DNA of 64,000 bases. It comes from an uncultured Bacteroidia bacterium (GTDB lineage Bacteria > Bacteroidota > Bacteroidia > Bacteroidales > UBA932). The notes beneath the pieces are model-generated. The model made no database searches, was not told the origin of the DNA, and was given only the letters and a program-made list of their open reading frames with translations. How positions within the stretch are numbered: position 1 is the stretch's first letter; the number at the start of each line of letters is the position of its first letter. The stretch lies in the NCBI GenBank assembly GCA_902780935.1, contig CACZHP010000001.1, forward strand, positions 129,264 to 193,263, written 5' to 3'. Below, piece by piece: positions 12,232 to 17,102 of the stretch. The translations under genes were made by a program, and so were the position numbers.

Positions 12232-13770
12232 CTAAAGGTTCCTGAGAAGGTTGGCCATGTTGACCTTCTTGTTGATCATCTCATGGAGCTCGCTGATAGG
12301 GACCCTCACCTGTTCCATCGAGTCGCGGTCGCGTACGGTGACGGTGTTGTCGTTCATCGTGTCGTTGTCGATGGTGACGCAGAACGGGGTTCCGATGGCA
12401 TCCTGGCGGCGATAGCGCTTGCCGATGGAGTCCTTCTCGTCATACTGGTAGGCGAAGTCGTACTTGAGAAGATCCACGACCTCCTGCGCCTTCTCCGGCA
12501 GACCGTCCTTCTTGACCAGGGGAAGGATAGCCACCTTGACCGGGGCGAGCGGGGCAGGAATGCTGAGGACCACGCGGGTCTCACCACCTTCCAGCTGCTC
12601 CACTTTGTAGGAATGGCTCAGGACGGCGAGGAACATACGATCCACACCGATCGAGGTCTCCACGCAGTAAGGAACATAGCTCTCACCGGTCTCAGGGTCG
12701 AAGTACTGAATCTTCTTCCCGCTGATTTTCTGATGGTTCCCGAGATCGAAGTCGGTCCTTGAGTGGATGCCCTCAAGCTCCTTGAAACCGAAGGGGAAGT
12801 TGAACTCGATGTCGGTGGCCGCATTGGCGTAGTGAGCCAGCTTCTCGTGGTCGTGGAAACGGTAGTTCTCCGCACCCATGCCGAGGTTGACATGCCATTT
12901 CATGCGGTTCTCCTTCCACTTGGCGAACCATTCCATCTCGGTTCCGGGACGGCAGAAGAATTCCATCTCCATCTGCTCGAACTCCTTCATTCGGAAGATG
13001 AACTGCCTTGCCACGATCTCATTACGGAAAGCCTTACCGATCTGGGCGATACCGAAAGGAATCTTCATACGGCCGGTCTTCTGGACGTTGAGGTACTCCA
13101 CGAATATTCCCTGGGCGGTCTCAGGACGGAGGTAAAGCACGTCGTCTGAATTACCTGTCGTGGAGCCCTGGGTGCTGAACATCAGGTTGAATTGCCTGAC
13201 CTCGGTCCAGTTGGCGGTGCCGGAGATGGGGCAGACGATCCCGCAGTCGATGATAATGTCTCGGTAGGCCTTGAGGTCGTTGGCATCCTCGGCGGCCTTG
13301 TAGCGCTCGTGTACCTCGTCGTATTTCTTCTTCTCGCGGAGGACATTGGGGTTTGTGGCCCTGAACTGTTCCTCGTTGAAGGCGTCTCCGAACTTCTTGC
13401 GTCCCTTGGCCACTTCCTTCTCGATCTTCTCCTCGATCTTGCCGAGATAGTCCTCGATCAGGTTGTCGGCGCGGTAGCGCTTCTTCGAGTCCTTGTTGTC
13501 GATCAGAGGGTCGTTGAAAGCGGCGACATGGCCCGAGGCGACCCAAGTCTTTGGGTGCATGAACACGCAGGAATCTATTCCCACGACATTCTCGTTGAGG
13601 CGGGTCATCGCCTCCCACCAATAACGCTTGATGTTGTTCTTGAGCTCAACGCCCATCTGGCCATAATCATAGACGGCGGCCAGTCCATCATAAATCTCAC
13701 TGGAGGGGAATATGAATCCGTATTCCTTGCAATGCGCGACCAGCACCTTGAAGAGTTCGTCCTGTGTCAT
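12232..13770 (-). CDS. glyQS: Glycine--tRNA ligase (homodimeric alpha2 type)
   Basis: SSEIYDGL, YDYGQMGVELK, YLRPETAQGIF, GKAFRNEI, EFEQMEM, ELEGIHSRTDFDL, anticodon domain IGKRYRRQDAIGTP. Confidence 0.97.
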   Translation of the reverse strand: MTQDELFKVLVAHCKEYGFIFPSSEIYDGLAAVYDYGQMGVELKNNIKRYWWEAMTRLNENVVGIDSCVFMHPKTWVASGHVAAFNDPLIDNKDSKKRYRADNLIEDYLGKIEEKIEKEVAKGRKKFGDAFNEEQFRATNPNVLREKKKYDEVHERYKAAEDANDLKAYRDIIIDCGIVCPISGTANWTEVRQFNLMFSTQGSTTGNSDDVLYLRPETAQGIFVEYLNVQKTGRMKIPFGIAQIGKAFRNEIVARQFIFRMKEFEQMEMEFFCRPGTEMEWFAKWKENRMKWHVNLGMGAENYRFHDHEKLAHYANAATDIEFNFPFGFKELEGIHSRTDFDLGNHQKISGKKIQYFDPETGESYVPYCVETSIGVDRMFLAVLSHSYKVEQLEGGETRVVLSIPAPLAPVKVAILPLVKKDGLPEKAQEVVDLLKYDFAYQYDEKDSIGKRYRRQDAIGTPFCVTIDNDTMNDNTVTVRDRDSMEQVRVPISELHEMINKKVNMANLLRNL

Positions 13771-13808
13771 AATATCTGGATCTTTTTATGTTCGTGTTTT
13801 TCCGCCTG

Positions 13809-13837
13809 CAAAGGTACAAAATAATTTAGTACCTTTA
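13809..13837. promoter_or_regulatory. Divergent promoter region with back-to-back -7 boxes forming an inverted repeat
   Basis: CAAAGGTA at 13809-13816 reads TACCTTTG on the minus strand toward glyQS; TACCTTTA at 13830-13837 (one mismatch) points toward the G1PDH-family gene. Confidence 0.55.
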
Positions 13838-13858
13838 TGGTCTGTAAACAATCAACAA

Positions 13859-15199
13859 ATGGATTCTAAACAGAGGATAGCGAACGCGCTCAAGGTGGCG
13901 ACCGACACCAAGGTGTTCGAGATGGGAAGAGGAGCCAGCCAGATGGCTCCAGATGTGTTCAAGGAGTATTTCCCCGGCCGAAAGGCGAAGATAATAGCCG
14001 ACATCCACACCTGGCCGGTTCTTGGGGAGAAGGTTTACGGCTTGTTTGTCGAGGCGGGGATCCCGACAGAGAAGTTCATCATCATGGAAGAGGAATTCCA
14101 TGCGGAATGGGAATATGTCGAGATGGTGGACAAGGAGCTGGATGGCGGATATATCGCTGTGTCAGTAGGTTCCGGAGTCATCAACGACCTTTGCAAGCTT
14201 TGCTCGCATCATCATGAGCAGCAGTATCTGACCTTGCCGACCGCGGCTTCAGTGGATGGATACTCCTCGTTCGGAGCCTCTATCTCTTATCAGAACTCAA
14301 AGCAGACTTTTTCTTGCCCGGCTCCGGTCGCTATAATCGCTGACATCGATGTGATAGCCGCCGCTCCCAAGGAGATGACAGCTGCTGGCTACGCCGATCT
14401 TGCCGCCAAGGTTCCCGCTGGGGCAGAGTGGATGGTCGCTGACCTGATGGGCACCGCTCCGATCAAGCCGGACGCCTGGCATGTGCTTCAGGACTATCTC
14501 GATGACTTGCTCTCGGATCCAGCGGGAGTCGCCGCGGGGGATCCGGCCGCTATAGCGGATTTGTTTGAGGGATTGACACTCAGCGGTTTCGCTATGCAGG
14601 CCGCCCAGTCCAGCCGCCCGGCATCCTGCTGCGATCACCTTTTCAGCCACATCCTGGACATGACCCATCACAGGTATAAGGGCAAGCTGCAATCCCATGG
14701 TTTCCAGGTCGCTATCGGAACCCTGACGATGTGCGCCGTTTTTGACGAGCTTTTCAAGCTGGATCTCACGAAGTTGGATGTGGACGCGTGTGTAAAGGCA
14801 TGGCCTACACTTGAGCAGGAGCAGGCCAGGGCTACGGAAATATTCAAGGATTTTCCTGCTCCGACCCTCGGGTACGACAACATCACGAAGAAGTACAACG
14901 ACGCTGAAACTGTCCGGGAGCAGCTCACGAGGGTCAAGGACACTTGGCCTGAGTTCAAGAAAAAGCTTCAGGGTCAGGTATATACCTTCGAGAAGATGCG
15001 GGATCTGTTCAAGATCGCGGGAGCCCCTTATGATCCATCCATGATCGGGGTCACCCGCCAGCAGCTTAAGGACATGTTCCCCATCGTGCAGCTAATGCGC
15101 CACAGGATGAACGTCCTGGATCTGGCGAAGAGGGGCATGTTCTACGACCGGATTGTCGAGCCGGTGTTCGCTCCCGGAGGGGCTTGGGAGATTGTTTAA
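13859..15199 (+). CDS. sn-glycerol-1-phosphate dehydrogenase family (AraM/EgsA-like, DHQ-synthase-like metal-dependent dehydrogenase)
   Basis: GSGVINDLCK, TAASVDGYSS, AGYADLAAK, SRPASCCDHLFSH, SHGFQVAIG; start moved to ATG 13859 because the longer ORF overlaps glyQS. Confidence 0.85.
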   Translation: MDSKQRIANALKVATDTKVFEMGRGASQMAPDVFKEYFPGRKAKIIADIHTWPVLGEKVYGLFVEAGIPTEKFIIMEEEFHAEWEYVEMVDKELDGGYIAVSVGSGVINDLCKLCSHHHEQQYLTLPTAASVDGYSSFGASISYQNSKQTFSCPAPVAIIADIDVIAAAPKEMTAAGYADLAAKVPAGAEWMVADLMGTAPIKPDAWHVLQDYLDDLLSDPAGVAAGDPAAIADLFEGLTLSGFAMQAAQSSRPASCCDHLFSHILDMTHHRYKGKLQSHGFQVAIGTLTMCAVFDELFKLDLTKLDVDACVKAWPTLEQEQARATEIFKDFPAPTLGYDNITKKYNDAETVREQLTRVKDTWPEFKKKLQGQVYTFEKMRDLFKIAGAPYDPSMIGVTRQQLKDMFPIVQLMRHRMNVLDLAKRGMFYDRIVEPVFAPGGAWEIV

Positions 15200-15205
15200 G
15201 GGATC

Positions 15206-15604
15206 ATGACTATCAGGGGTTCGGGAGTTGGCGGATTCGCCAAAGGGAAGGCGTTTGTCGCGGTTGACAGCGGCCAGCGCAATCCCTATGAGGACATTCC
15301 TCCGGGAAGTGTCCTTGTGGCCCGGACTGTCTTTCTGGCGGATTCCGTGATGATCAATTTCAATAATGTGGTGGCGATGGTCCTTGAGGATGAGGATCTG
15401 ACAGGCCATCCGAGCCTTTTGGCAAGGGGGCTGGGAATACCAGCCATAGTCGGGGTGAAGGGTTGTCTCTCGAATATTATCAACGGGGATAGGATTCTCA
15501 TCCAGAACATGGATGTGATCATCAATCCGGATCTTGCGGCGGTGGAGGAATATGACCGGCTGAGAAGGGAATCAGATCCCCAGCTCAGTCTTGATCTGCT
15601 TTAG
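15206..15604 (+). CDS. Stand-alone PEP-utiliser mobile (phospho-histidine swivel) domain protein
   Basis: N-terminal GSGVGGFAKGKA resembles the Enzyme I start; LTGHPSLLARGLGIPAIVG matches TSHxxIxARxxxIPAIVG; VIINPD tail; ATG 6 nt after the upstream stop. Confidence 0.78.
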   Translation: MTIRGSGVGGFAKGKAFVAVDSGQRNPYEDIPPGSVLVARTVFLADSVMINFNNVVAMVLEDEDLTGHPSLLARGLGIPAIVGVKGCLSNIINGDRILIQNMDVIINPDLAAVEEYDRLRRESDPQLSLDLL

Positions 15605-17102
15605 AGAGAACCTCCTTCCAGACCCTCATGAAATTTTCTCCCCAGAAGCCTTTGATCTGCTCTGGGGTGTAGCCATGTTCCAGCATCTTGACCGTGAGGT
15701 TGATAAGGTCATTGTCCCCATTGCAACCCCACACACCGCCGCCTCCATCAAAGTCGCTTCCTATCCCAACATGCTCAGCTCCAGCCACTTTGACGCAATG
15801 GTCGAAATGTTCCATCATGTCGTCTATGGTCATCGAGCTCCGTGGTCTGCCAAGATATTCAGGGACGCTATAGACTTGTATCAGGCCTCCGTTCTCGGCA
15901 AGAGCCTTGAGCTGTTTGTCGTCCAGCCCGCGGTCGTGGCCGTAAACTGCCTTGGCTCCGGAATGGGAACAGATAATAGGAGCCTTGCTGTATTTGACGC
16001 AGTCCCAGAAAGTACCGGCAGAAGGATGGGACAAATCTATCATGATCCCCTGGCGGTTCATCTCCTCGACCACCTGCTTTCCGAAGTCTGTCAGGCCTTT
16101 GGAGGGATTGCTTCCGTGTCGGGAGGAAGTGTTGCAGATGGCGTTGTCCCGGAAGTGGCATAGGGAGATATAGACCACTCCCAAGTCCTTCATTTTCTTT
16201 ATGTTCCCAAGGTCGTTACCTATCCCGTACCCGTTCTCAAGGGCGATCATGAAGACTTTTTTGCCAAGAGCTTTAAGGGAATCCGCTTCGGCTGGGGTCT
16301 TGGCAAGGCCGCATATTTGGGAATAATTGTCCACATCTGCCTTGATTTTCTTGATCTTGTCCAAGTTTTTCCTAACGGCTTTGTCGGAGGAAGCATTGTC
16401 CAGCGGTCCTTGCCAGAGAAAGCTGATTAGAATCTGAGCGTCCAAGTGGCCCTCTATCATTTTTGGGACGCCGGTCAGGGATTTCGAGCGTGTACCAACT
16501 GAATAGCCAAGATGATAAAGATCCGGGAGGTCGCAGTGGGTGTCAATCGAGAAACAACTGTCCATCAATTCTTTAGCCTTCCGGAATGTTCTCGCCTTCT
16601 CTATGAGACCATCCATTGTGGTGATTGTTCCCGGCATCTTGCGGAGCCCTTTGTCTATAGCCTCCGTCAAGCTGGAGGATCCCACGTGGGGAATATTCCT
16701 GTCAGCTATGGCTTTGTAAAACAGCACTGAATACTCATCCCCGGCCCGCACCCATCCGTCCGGGATCATGGCTCCGTCCCATAGCGCCGCCAGTGACCAG
16801 AGTTCGGAATAAGGGTTTCTAATGGCCGCCAAACTTGGGACTTCCGCTGGATGGCCACCGGCTTTTCGGACCATTTCCGAGAGTATCTCTTTTTGGGGGC
16901 AGTCGGGGATGGCGATGGTGGGGAGGAGGCCTTCGAGTCGAGGATGAGAATAATAATCAGAATGACAATATGAGGAGAGGGCAGCGTCGGATTTTTCGAA
17001 TATGGCCTTGACGTCGTCAGGATAATTAAGTTCCTGGGCTCTAGACCGAAAAGAGACCAGAGCTGACAGGAAAGAGACGAATATGAATAAATACCCCCTC
17101 AT
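15585..17102 (-). CDS. Membrane dipeptidase (peptidase M19) with degenerate N-terminal domain, secreted
   Basis: IDTHCDLP, ALENGY, YISLCH, GLTDFGKQVVEEMNRQGIMIDLSH, SHSG, HVGIGSDFDGGG, GENFMRV. Confidence 0.9.
   Translation of the reverse strand: MRGYLFIFVSFLSALVSFRSRAQELNYPDDVKAIFEKSDAALSSYCHSDYYSHPRLEGLLPTIAIPDCPQKEILSEMVRKAGGHPAEVPSLAAIRNPYSELWSLAALWDGAMIPDGWVRAGDEYSVLFYKAIADRNIPHVGSSSLTEAIDKGLRKMPGTITTMDGLIEKARTFRKAKELMDSCFSIDTHCDLPDLYHLGYSVGTRSKSLTGVPKMIEGHLDAQILISFLWQGPLDNASSDKAVRKNLDKIKKIKADVDNYSQICGLAKTPAEADSLKALGKKVFMIALENGYGIGNDLGNIKKMKDLGVVYISLCHFRDNAICNTSSRHGSNPSKGLTDFGKQVVEEMNRQGIMIDLSHPSAGTFWDCVKYSKAPIICSHSGAKAVYGHDRGLDDKQLKALAENGGLIQVYSVPEYLGRPRSSMTIDDMMEHFDHCVKVAGAEHVGIGSDFDGGGGVWGCNGDNDLINLTVKMLEHGYTPEQIKGFWGENFMRVWKEVLSKADQD

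What the first reader, a model, noticed from the sequence alone, without database searches (positions are those of the whole stretch)
13859..15604. G1P-dehydrogenase-family gene paired with a stand-alone phospho-histidine swivel domain
The 132-aa ORF joins an Enzyme I-like first strand (MTIRGSGVGGFAKGKA) directly to the His domain (LTGH68PSLLARGLGIPAIVG...VIINPD). It lacks both the HPr-binding helical domain and the PEP-binding barrel, yet keeps the phospho-acceptor His and has a clean ATG 6 nt after the dehydrogenase stop (seen). Such domains normally sit inside Enzyme I, PPDK, PEP synthase or DhaM, and Bacteroidota generally lack a sugar PTS (established). G1PDH interconverts G1P and DHAP, and PTS-fed DHA kinases use a truncated EI domain (established). 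Inference: this may be an undescribed two-gene module in which a free phosphocarrier donates phosphate to, or regulates, triose/polyol-phosphate metabolism. The Gly-rich loop before the His is replaced by EDED, hinting at a new partner surface.
Basis: partly seen in the sequence, partly recalled or inferred. Interest (0 to 1): 0.7.

Follow-up and report, generated by a model that had tools for sequence, protein, structure and literature searches.

The report
Domesticated Enzyme I remnant beside dehydrogenase
A rumen Bacteroidales bacterium keeps, right after an AraM-like glycerol-1-phosphate-type dehydrogenase gene, a 132-residue leftover of a sugar-transport (PTS) Enzyme I gene that is still under selection but has probably stopped carrying phosphate.

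Summary
Window 13859-15199 encodes a 446-aa Fe-ADH_2 dehydrogenase whose closest solved relative is Bacillus subtilis AraM. Six bases later, 15206-15604 encodes a 132-aa protein that is only a PEP-utiliser swivel domain.

The small gene is not a decaying fragment. About 90 intact homologues of 122-139 aa exist, and dN/dS is 0.05-0.17. It lies next to the dehydrogenase in all but one lineage. It was found only in the genus Candidatus Cryptobacteroides, in 20 of 151 species genomes.

Its origin is now clear. In a relative (L113) the orthologous dehydrogenase gene is followed by ptsH, a full ptsI and a mannitol-type EIICBA. That Enzyme I carries the small family's invariant GFAKGKAF first strand. 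The small proteins form one clade inside the local Enzyme I lineage.

The free-phosphocarrier reading is not supported. The Gly-Gly loop is acidic in every member. The acceptor His is replaced by Gln, Glu, Asp, Ala or Ser in most deep lineages. The window's genome has no Enzyme I, HPr, EIIA or DhaK.

Best reading: a domesticated, largely non-catalytic Enzyme I remnant that acts as an accessory protein. A residual phospho-switch remains possible in the His-keeping clade. The scan noted the same pair in another genome (e1-5225574).

The parts
13859..15199 (+). AraM-like Fe-ADH_2 dehydrogenase (446 aa), predicted to act on sn-glycerol-1-phosphate or a polyol phosphate
   Evidence: PF13685 at 102 bits. 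NCBIfam G1PDH scores 144 bits against a cut-off of 413. Best solved relative is 9h4x, B. subtilis AraM: 112 bits by sequence and TM 0.82 by fold. The aligned D/H/H positions are kept (AAGYAD, CCDHLFSH, SHG).
15197..15208 (+). Junction TAA GGGATC ATG. The two ORFs are in the same frame, one stop apart.
   Evidence: 13 of 25 related loci are also in frame with a single stop.
15206..15604 (+). 132-aa stand-alone swivel domain, equal to the alpha/beta subdomain of Enzyme I
   Evidence: Only PF00391 matches. AF2 pLDDT 87. Foldseek best matches are Enzyme I N-domains. dN/dS 0.05-0.17.
15233..15256 (+). First strand G10-F17 (GFAKGKAF). Six of its eight positions are invariant in the family (G10 F11 A12 K13 G14 A16). 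The identical 8-mer occurs in the full Enzyme I of L113.
15386..15397 (+). Acidic loop E61-D62-E63-D64 in place of the Gly-Gly loop
   Evidence: The motif T/SxxGGxxxH is from PMC12167813.
15407..15409 (+). His68 codon, at the position of the Enzyme I phospho-acceptor. It is kept in this clade and replaced by Q/E/D/A/S in other lineages.
15581..15601 (+). C-terminal tail QLSLDLL. Q126 and L127 are invariant, and the tail is predicted disordered.
12232..13770 (-). Glycyl-tRNA synthetase gene, the conserved upstream neighbour of the pair (synteny marker, not part of the unit)
15585..17102 (-). M19 dipeptidase gene, convergent; its 3' end overlaps the small gene by 20 nt

Best explanation
The 132-aa gene is a domesticated remnant of a PTS Enzyme I gene.

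Inferred history: the ancestor of this Cryptobacteroides lineage carried an operon in which the AraM-like dehydrogenase gene was followed by ptsH, ptsI and a mannitol-type EIICBA. That arrangement survives in L113. In the window's lineage HPr, the HPr-binding helical subdomain, the PEP-binding barrel and the permease were all lost. What remains is Enzyme I's alpha/beta swivel subdomain: first strand, His domain and linker helix.

Shown: the remnant is intact and under purifying selection. It lies 6 nt after the dehydrogenase stop, on the same strand and in the same reading frame, so co-transcription is likely but was not measured.

Inferred: it no longer acts mainly as a phosphate carrier. Its phosphotransfer loop is degenerate, the His is dispensable in most lineages, and this genome has no Enzyme I or HPr to charge it. 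It most probably acts as a non-catalytic accessory protein that binds or tunes the dehydrogenase or its pathway. It would do so through its invariant surfaces (GFAKG strand, RNP-F/Y-E, GDR, NPDL, C-terminal QLSLDL tail).

The dehydrogenase itself most likely oxidises sn-glycerol-1-phosphate or another polyol phosphate. Such substrates would come from glycerophosphodiesterases or, in relatives, from the PTS.

A residual phospho-switch role for His68 remains possible in the His-keeping clade, where some species still own Enzyme I and HPr.
For: Origin:
- The closest full-length relative of the small protein is Enzyme I P0357, at 41% identity.
- P0357 lies in the operon Fe-ADH_2, HPr, EI, EIICBA in L113.
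- That EI starts MIILKGIGTQGFAKGKAF and contains KGIPAIVGVKGCL, both matching the small protein. Its dehydrogenase is 69-74% identical to the small-partnered ones and falls inside their clade (95% SH-aLRT, quick tree).
- The small family is monophyletic (100/99). It nests in a 97/97 clade with the Cryptobacteroides-type Enzyme I sequences.
- Other congeners have EIICBA, HPr, EI, dehydrogenase (L026, L064, L066). One has dehydrogenase, GlpT-like MFS, GDPD, ribulokinase, HPr, EI (L072).
- All 15 Enzyme-I-bearing genomes of 151 also carry the dehydrogenase family, which occurs in 66 of 151.

Selection:
- dN/dS is 0.05-0.17 in both His and Gln clades.
- dN/dS is 0.10 in the lineage where the gene is unlinked from the dehydrogenase and carries Ala.

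Degeneracy:
- The GG loop is acidic in all members.
- Site 68 among 80 cluster representatives is H 71, Q 6, D 2, A 1. E and S occur in further members.
- The tree needs several independent losses of His.

No donors in the own genome.

Dehydrogenase theme: neighbours in the genus are GDPD, GlpT-like MFS, FGGY/ribulokinase, GpsA-like, DeoR, HAD and metallophosphoesterase genes. The own genome has 7 GDPD genes and no PcrB.
Against: - No direct evidence of binding. The AF2 model of the natural read-through fusion gave pTM 0.76, which does not settle docking.
- No natural dehydrogenase-swivel fusion was found.
- About half of the orthologous dehydrogenase genes in the genus have no small partner, so the enzyme does not need it.
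- Adjacency within one genus is weak evidence of functional coupling, because GlyRS and ComF are conserved neighbours too.
- His is invariant in all 71 representatives of the window's clade. Also, 3 of 7 His-clade genomes but 0 of 12 genomes of the 52-59% identity group have Enzyme I. That would fit a retained phospho-function in this clade.
- The gene order of L113 could be a secondary rearrangement rather than the ancestral state.
Confidence: 0.55

Rival explanations
1. True free phosphocarrier. His68 is phosphorylated by Enzyme I, HPr or PPDK. It then passes phosphate to, or switches, the dehydrogenase or its pathway.
For: - His68 and the flanking T-x-H / LARGLGIPA motif are kept in the window's clade, in 71 of 71 representatives.
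- Three of seven His-clade genomes in the sample still have EIICBA-HPr-EI.
- DhaM shows that an Enzyme I N-domain can act as a carrier (NCBIfam match; established knowledge).
- The dehydrogenase family is repeatedly operon-linked to EI and HPr.
Against: - The Gly-Gly loop is lost in all members.
- The His is lost in most deep lineages without loss of constraint.
- The window's genome and its nearest relative G569 lack EI and HPr.
- The HPr-binding subdomain is absent.
- The locus has no kinase-type acceptor, and the genome has no Dak1.
Confidence: 0.15
2. The remnant works independently of the dehydrogenase. It could, for example, mimic the central domain of the genome's only PEP-utilising enzyme (PPDK), or bind another partner through its conserved tail.
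For: - In the G358/L007/L098 lineage the small gene stays at the GlyRS locus behind a GH123 gene, while the dehydrogenase has moved elsewhere. It is still under purifying selection, dN/dS 0.10.
- Many dehydrogenase orthologues lack it.
- A 913-aa PPDK-like protein is present.
Against: - All 20 genomes of the sample with the small gene also carry the dehydrogenase.
- The spacing of 6-22 nt on the same strand holds in most lineages.
- There is no evidence for any PPDK interaction.
Confidence: 0.15
3. Non-functional relic of ptsI that is merely slow to decay.
For: - It is a truncated piece of a larger enzyme with a degenerate active loop.
- It evolves 2-4 times faster than the dehydrogenase.
Against: - dN/dS is 0.05-0.17 at saturated dS.
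- Length is constant at 127-132 aa across lineages that are 52% identical.
- 22 columns are invariant.
- The AF2 fold is confident.
Confidence: 0.03

Closest known systems
PTS Enzyme I (PtsI), N-terminal alpha/beta subdomain (e.g. PDB 5woy, 2wqd, 1zym)
   Same: - Best sequence and fold matches.
- Same first strand, His-domain core (T-x-H, LAR-G-IPA-VG) and NPD linker helix.
- Phylogenetically nested within the local Enzyme I lineage.
   Different: - Lacks the HPr-binding helical subdomain and the PEP-binding barrel.
- The Gly-Gly loop is replaced by acidic residues.
- The His is not conserved in the family.
- The host genome has no PTS.
Extra C-terminal PEP-utiliser-like domain of Bacillus/Staphylococcus pyruvate kinase (PDB 2e28, 3t05)
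   Same: A swivel fold reused outside a phosphotransfer enzyme, apparently as a structural or regulatory module. It matches over residues 3-103.
   Different: It is fused to its enzyme and not Enzyme I-derived. The domain here is a separate polypeptide next to a dehydrogenase.
Split small-molecule dikinases (HpeHI, CreHI, phenylphosphate synthase PpsAB; PMC12167813)
   Same: The swivel domain is encoded apart from the other catalytic parts.
   Different: In those systems the swivel is fused to a substrate-binding domain, has an ATP-grasp partner, keeps T/SxxGGxxxH, and its His is essential. None of this holds here.
DhaM of PTS-dependent dihydroxyacetone kinase
   Same: A truncated Enzyme I N-domain used as a phosphocarrier in triose metabolism. 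NCBIfam match at 29.5 bits.
   Different: DhaM also has EIIA-Man and HPr-like domains and needs DhaK/DhaL. No Dak1 is present in this genome.
Bacillus subtilis AraM, Ni2+-dependent sn-glycerol-1-phosphate dehydrogenase (PDB 9h4x)
   Same: - Closest solved relative of the 446-aa enzyme.
- Conserved D/H/H positions.
- As in the Bacillus ara operon, relatives sit with ribulokinase, class II aldolase and HAD genes.
   Different: - Only 23% identity.
- About 50-60 extra residues in the helical domain.
- No PcrB in the genome.
- The context points to catabolism of glycerophosphodiesters or polyol phosphates, not ether-lipid synthesis.

Membership tests
PTS Enzyme I (PtsI) | N-terminal HPr-binding helical subdomain (PF05524) | tested here: not met
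   Only PF00391 is found. Residues 18-30 join the first strand directly to the His domain.
PTS Enzyme I (PtsI) | C-terminal PEP-binding TIM barrel (PF02896) | tested here: not met
   The protein ends after the linker helix.
PTS Enzyme I (PtsI) | Descent from the Enzyme I lineage | tested here: met
   Monophyletic small family inside the Cryptobacteroides-type EI clade, 97/97. Shares GFAKGKAF and GIPAIVGVKGCL with the L113 EI.
PEP-utiliser phosphohistidine swivel domain (PF00391) | Swivel beta/beta/alpha fold | tested here: met
   PF00391 scores 47.8 bits against a cut-off of 23.1. AF2 pLDDT 87. Foldseek matches EI, RPH and PK domains at rmsd about 2 A.
PEP-utiliser phosphohistidine swivel domain (PF00391) | T/SxxGGxxxH loop with a conserved acceptor His | tested here: not met
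   GG is replaced by E/D in all members. The His is Q/E/D/A/S in many. The motif is from PMC12167813.
PEP-utiliser phosphohistidine swivel domain (PF00391) | Phosphorylation of the His | not testable with these tools
   Needs 32P-PEP labelling or pHis detection.
Split small-molecule dikinase (HpeHI/PpsAB type) | ATP-grasp partner and a substrate-binding domain fused to the swivel | tested here: not met
   The neighbours are GlyRS, the dehydrogenase and an M19 peptidase. The protein holds no domain besides PF00391.
DhaM / PTS-dependent DHA kinase | DhaK/DhaL kinase subunits and PTS donors in the genome | tested here: not met
   No Dak1, HPr or EIIA_2 in the own genome.
sn-Glycerol-1-phosphate dehydrogenase (EgsA/AraM) | Fe-ADH_2 / DHQS-like fold, closest to solved G1PDHs | tested here: met
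   (9h4x, 4rgq, 5fb3).
sn-Glycerol-1-phosphate dehydrogenase (EgsA/AraM) | Score above the NCBIfam equivalog cut-off | tested here: not met
   144 bits against a cut-off of 413.
sn-Glycerol-1-phosphate dehydrogenase (EgsA/AraM) | Conserved Asp/His/His at the positions aligned with the metal site | tested here: met
   AAGYAD, CCDHLFSH and SHG align with AAGFGD, GGEHHISH and LHG of 9h4x. That these are the metal ligands is from my own knowledge of the family.
sn-Glycerol-1-phosphate dehydrogenase (EgsA/AraM) | DHAP/G1P activity | not testable with these tools
   Enzyme assay needed. G1PDH homologues with other substrates exist, e.g. glycolaldehyde reductase (NF053832).

The most novel reading that the evidence does not exclude
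The remnant may be a new kind of PTS-derived regulatory subunit. In His-keeping species that still own Enzyme I and HPr, phosphorylation of His68 would report PTS or PEP status to an AraM-like polyol-phosphate dehydrogenase. In PTS-less species it would be locked, by Gln, Glu or Asp or by lack of a donor, in one signalling state.

Linked to this, the Cryptobacteroides mannitol-type PTS operons would use an AraM-like enzyme in place of MtlD. That would be a previously undescribed catabolic role for bacterial G1PDH homologues.
Probability: 0.15. Interest if true: 0.65.

Novelty: new variant of a known kind. Interest (0 to 1): 0.45.

Why it matters
It documents how a multidomain phosphotransfer enzyme can be whittled down to one subdomain and yet be kept by selection. 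That makes it a candidate pseudo-enzyme or accessory protein.

It also uncovers complete PTS operons in a Bacteroidales genus, a phylum usually said to lack them. These operons tie bacterial AraM-like G1P dehydrogenases to catabolism of PTS products and glycerophosphodiesters rather than to ether-lipid synthesis. The physiological role of bacterial G1PDH homologues is an open question.

The practical reach is modest. The small family was found only in one rumen/hindgut genus, and no mechanism is shown.

Tried and rejected
- Decaying ptsI fragment: rejected by dN/dS and constant length.
- G1P supply for archaeal-type ether lipids: no PcrB/GGGPS in the genome.
- DHA-kinase-like relay: no Dak1.
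- PDRP-type Thr regulation of the swivel: no PF03618.
- Rosetta-stone fusion of dehydrogenase and swivel: none found among proteins of 320-1017 aa.
- Co-folding through the natural in-frame read-through (P0208, alignment A1): good pLDDT but pTM 0.76, and no access to inter-domain error, so it is inconclusive.
- Promoter, terminator and Rfam scans of 13000-16500: nothing informative.
- Literature searches found no description of this pair or of a PTS in Cryptobacteroides.
Full report
**What is there.** Window 13859-15199 (+) encodes a 446-aa protein, and 15206-15604 (+) encodes a 132-aa protein. They are separated by TAA GGGATC ATG.

- The first protein matches Pfam Fe-ADH_2 at 102 bits. It matches the NCBIfam G1PDH equivalog only weakly, at 144 bits against a cut-off of 413.
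- Its best solved relative, by sequence (112 bits) and by fold (TM 0.82), is 9h4x. This is the Ni2+-dependent sn-glycerol-1-phosphate dehydrogenase AraM of Bacillus subtilis.
- The Asp/His/His positions that align with the conserved AAGFGD, EH..SH and HG motifs are kept.
- The second protein matches only the PEP-utilizers mobile domain, PF00391 at 47.8 bits.
- Against solved Enzyme I N-domains, its residues 30-121 align with EI 151-243. Its first strand GFAKGKAFV aligns with EI residues 10-18.
- An AF2 model built on the family alignment is confident (pLDDT 87). Its best fold matches are Enzyme I, rifampin phosphotransferase and the pyruvate-kinase C-terminal domain.

**Is it a live gene?** Yes.

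- A search of 5.8 billion proteins gave 87 homologues. Nearly all are 122-139 aa, at 52-95% identity.
- A search of 1.84 billion cluster representatives found only about nine clusters of this family. The next hits are full-length Enzyme I proteins at about 38% identity.
- Pairwise dN/dS of the small gene is 0.05-0.17. The dehydrogenase gives 0.02-0.11 for the same pairs.
- The alignment has 22 invariant columns. These include G10 F11 A12 K13 G14 and Q126 L127 in the C-terminal tail.

**Distribution.**

- The organism is a Candidatus Cryptobacteroides from ruminant or hindgut metagenomes, judged from the record titles.
- The small gene was found in 20 of 151 species genomes of that genus.
- It was found in 0 of 272 genomes from 36 other genera of the family.
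- It was found in 0 of 200 other genomes sampled across the order.
- In every lineage but one it follows the dehydrogenase gene. The pair usually lies next to the glycyl-tRNA synthetase gene.
- In G628 a GDPD gene sits between the two, and a transporter gene follows.
- In the G358/L007/L098 lineage a GH123 gene has taken the dehydrogenase's place, and the dehydrogenase lies on another contig.
- About half of the orthologous dehydrogenase genes in the genus lie in other loci and have no small partner.

**The PTS connection.** The window's own genome is 97% complete. It has no HPr, no EIIA_2 and no Dak1. PEP-utilizers_C occurs only in a 913-aa PPDK-like ORF. Congeners, however, carry real PTS operons linked to the same dehydrogenase family.

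- G477, G534 and G640 have EIICBA, HPr (GIHARPA), Enzyme I, then a dehydrogenase 53-55% identical to ours.
- Their EIICBA passes NCBI's cut-off for the mannitol IICBA subfamily, 735 bits against 589.
- G614 has dehydrogenase, GlpT/PgtP-like MFS, GDPD, ribulokinase (570 bits against 428), HPr, then Enzyme I, with no EII.
- Enzyme I occurs in 15 of 151 genomes. All 15 also carry the dehydrogenase family, which occurs in 66 of 151. These genomes are related, so the association is only indicative.

**Origin of the small gene.**

- I searched for proteins of 320-1017 aa that contain a relative of the small domain. No dehydrogenase-swivel fusion turned up. The closest full-length relative was Enzyme I P0357, at 41% identity.
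- P0357 is encoded in an operon Fe-ADH_2 (480 aa), HPr, Enzyme I (552 aa), EIICBA (L113). Here Enzyme I lies downstream of the dehydrogenase, as the small gene does.
- That Enzyme I begins MIILKGIGTQGFAKGKAF, which holds the small family's first-strand motif. It also contains KGIPAIVGVKGCL, which matches the window's protein over twelve residues.
- Its dehydrogenase is 69-74% identical to the small-partnered ones. It falls inside their clade.
- In a tree of swivel regions the small family is monophyletic (100/99). It nests in a 97/97 clade with the Cryptobacteroides-type Enzyme I sequences, apart from other Enzyme I proteins and from PPDK.

The most economical reading is a single in-situ reduction of ptsI in a dehydrogenase-ptsH-ptsI-EIICBA operon. 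That reduction removed the helical HPr-binding insert and everything after the linker helix.

**Does it still carry phosphate?** Probably not as its conserved function.

- Swivel domains share T/SxxGGxxxH. The G-rich loop orients the His, and the His is essential (PMC12167813).
- In this family the two Gly positions are Glu/Asp in all members.
- The His position among 80 cluster representatives is H 71, Q 6, D 2, A 1. Glu and Ser occur in further members.
- Nine species genomes of the sample carry DGQVCVLAKG. His-to-Gln is the very substitution used experimentally to block Enzyme I phosphorylation (PDB 2l5h title).
- Constraint is the same in His and non-His lineages.
- The tree requires several independent losses of His.

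Against this, all 71 representatives of the window's own clade keep His. Also, 3 of 7 His-clade genomes in the sample have Enzyme I, against 0 of 12 genomes in the 52-59% identity group. That is a small, non-independent sample. A residual phospho-switch in that clade cannot be excluded. In the window's genome, though, no Enzyme I or HPr exists to charge it.

**What the pair does (inference).** Neighbours of this dehydrogenase family in the genus are the following:

- glycerophosphodiesterases;
- GlpT-like antiporters;
- FGGY kinases, including a ribulokinase;
- a GpsA-like dehydrogenase;
- DeoR regulators;
- HAD, metallo- and histidine phosphatases;
- a class II aldolase;
- PTS components.

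The own genome has seven GDPD genes and no PcrB. This points to catabolism of sn-glycerol-1-phosphate or another polyol phosphate, not to ether-lipid synthesis.

The small protein most likely acts as a non-catalytic accessory or regulatory partner. Its strongly conserved but predicted-disordered tail looks like a docking motif.

Binding to the dehydrogenase is not shown. The two ORFs are in frame, so I folded the natural read-through product (P0208) with a mixed paired/unpaired alignment. The pLDDT was 91, but the pTM was only 0.76, which does not decide whether the domains dock.

**Limits.**

- No multimer model or inter-domain error was available, and no biochemistry.
- Counts across one genus are phylogenetically dependent.
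That is not independent evidence.

**Verdict.** It is a new variant of a known domain: an Enzyme I swivel subdomain kept as a stand-alone, catalytically degenerate protein. The evolutionary story is clear, but the present function is unresolved. Interest is moderate.

Noticed in passing
L026:6101-11286; L064:5031-10526; L066:8106-13391; L113:6229-11487: Complete PTS operons occur in a Bacteroidales genus: mannitol-type EIICBA, HPr, Enzyme I and an AraM-like dehydrogenase where MtlD would be expected. Enzyme I is present in 15 of 151 Cryptobacteroides species genomes.
   Followed up: partly
L072:2140-9318 (minus strand): Six-gene operon: AraM-like dehydrogenase, GlpT/PgtP-like MFS, GDPD, ribulokinase, HPr, Enzyme I. 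It has no EII. This suggests HPr/EI-dependent regulation of a kinase, and it echoes the araB/araM association of Bacillus.
   Followed up: partly
window 15197-15208 and 13 of 25 related loci: The dehydrogenase and the small ORF are in the same reading frame, separated by a single stop codon. This could be shared descent, a former fusion or occasional read-through. No natural fusion was found.
   Followed up: partly
L068, L069, L070, L063 (same genus): A third paralogue group of the dehydrogenase (41-47% identity) sits with GpsA-like G3P dehydrogenase, DeoR regulators, a HAD hydrolase, a class II aldolase and metallophosphoesterase genes.
   Followed up: no
L046, L049, L052, L073, L077 and others: Dehydrogenases of the Gln-clade lineages are 474-481 aa long. 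They carry an insertion of about 22-30 residues near residue 100 relative to the window's 446-aa protein.
   Followed up: no
window 15585-15604: The 3' ends of the small gene and of the convergent M19 dipeptidase gene overlap by 20 nt.
   Followed up: no
own genome, contigs C6, C13, C15, C16, C23, C26 (L105-L111): There are seven GDPD-family genes in a 3.05-Mb genome, which suggests heavy investment in glycerophosphodiester breakdown.
   Followed up: no
L027:11237-12703 (minus strand): A 488-aa protein with no Pfam match lies directly upstream of EIICBA-HPr-EI in G426. It could be the unknown enzyme acting on that PTS's product.
   Followed up: no
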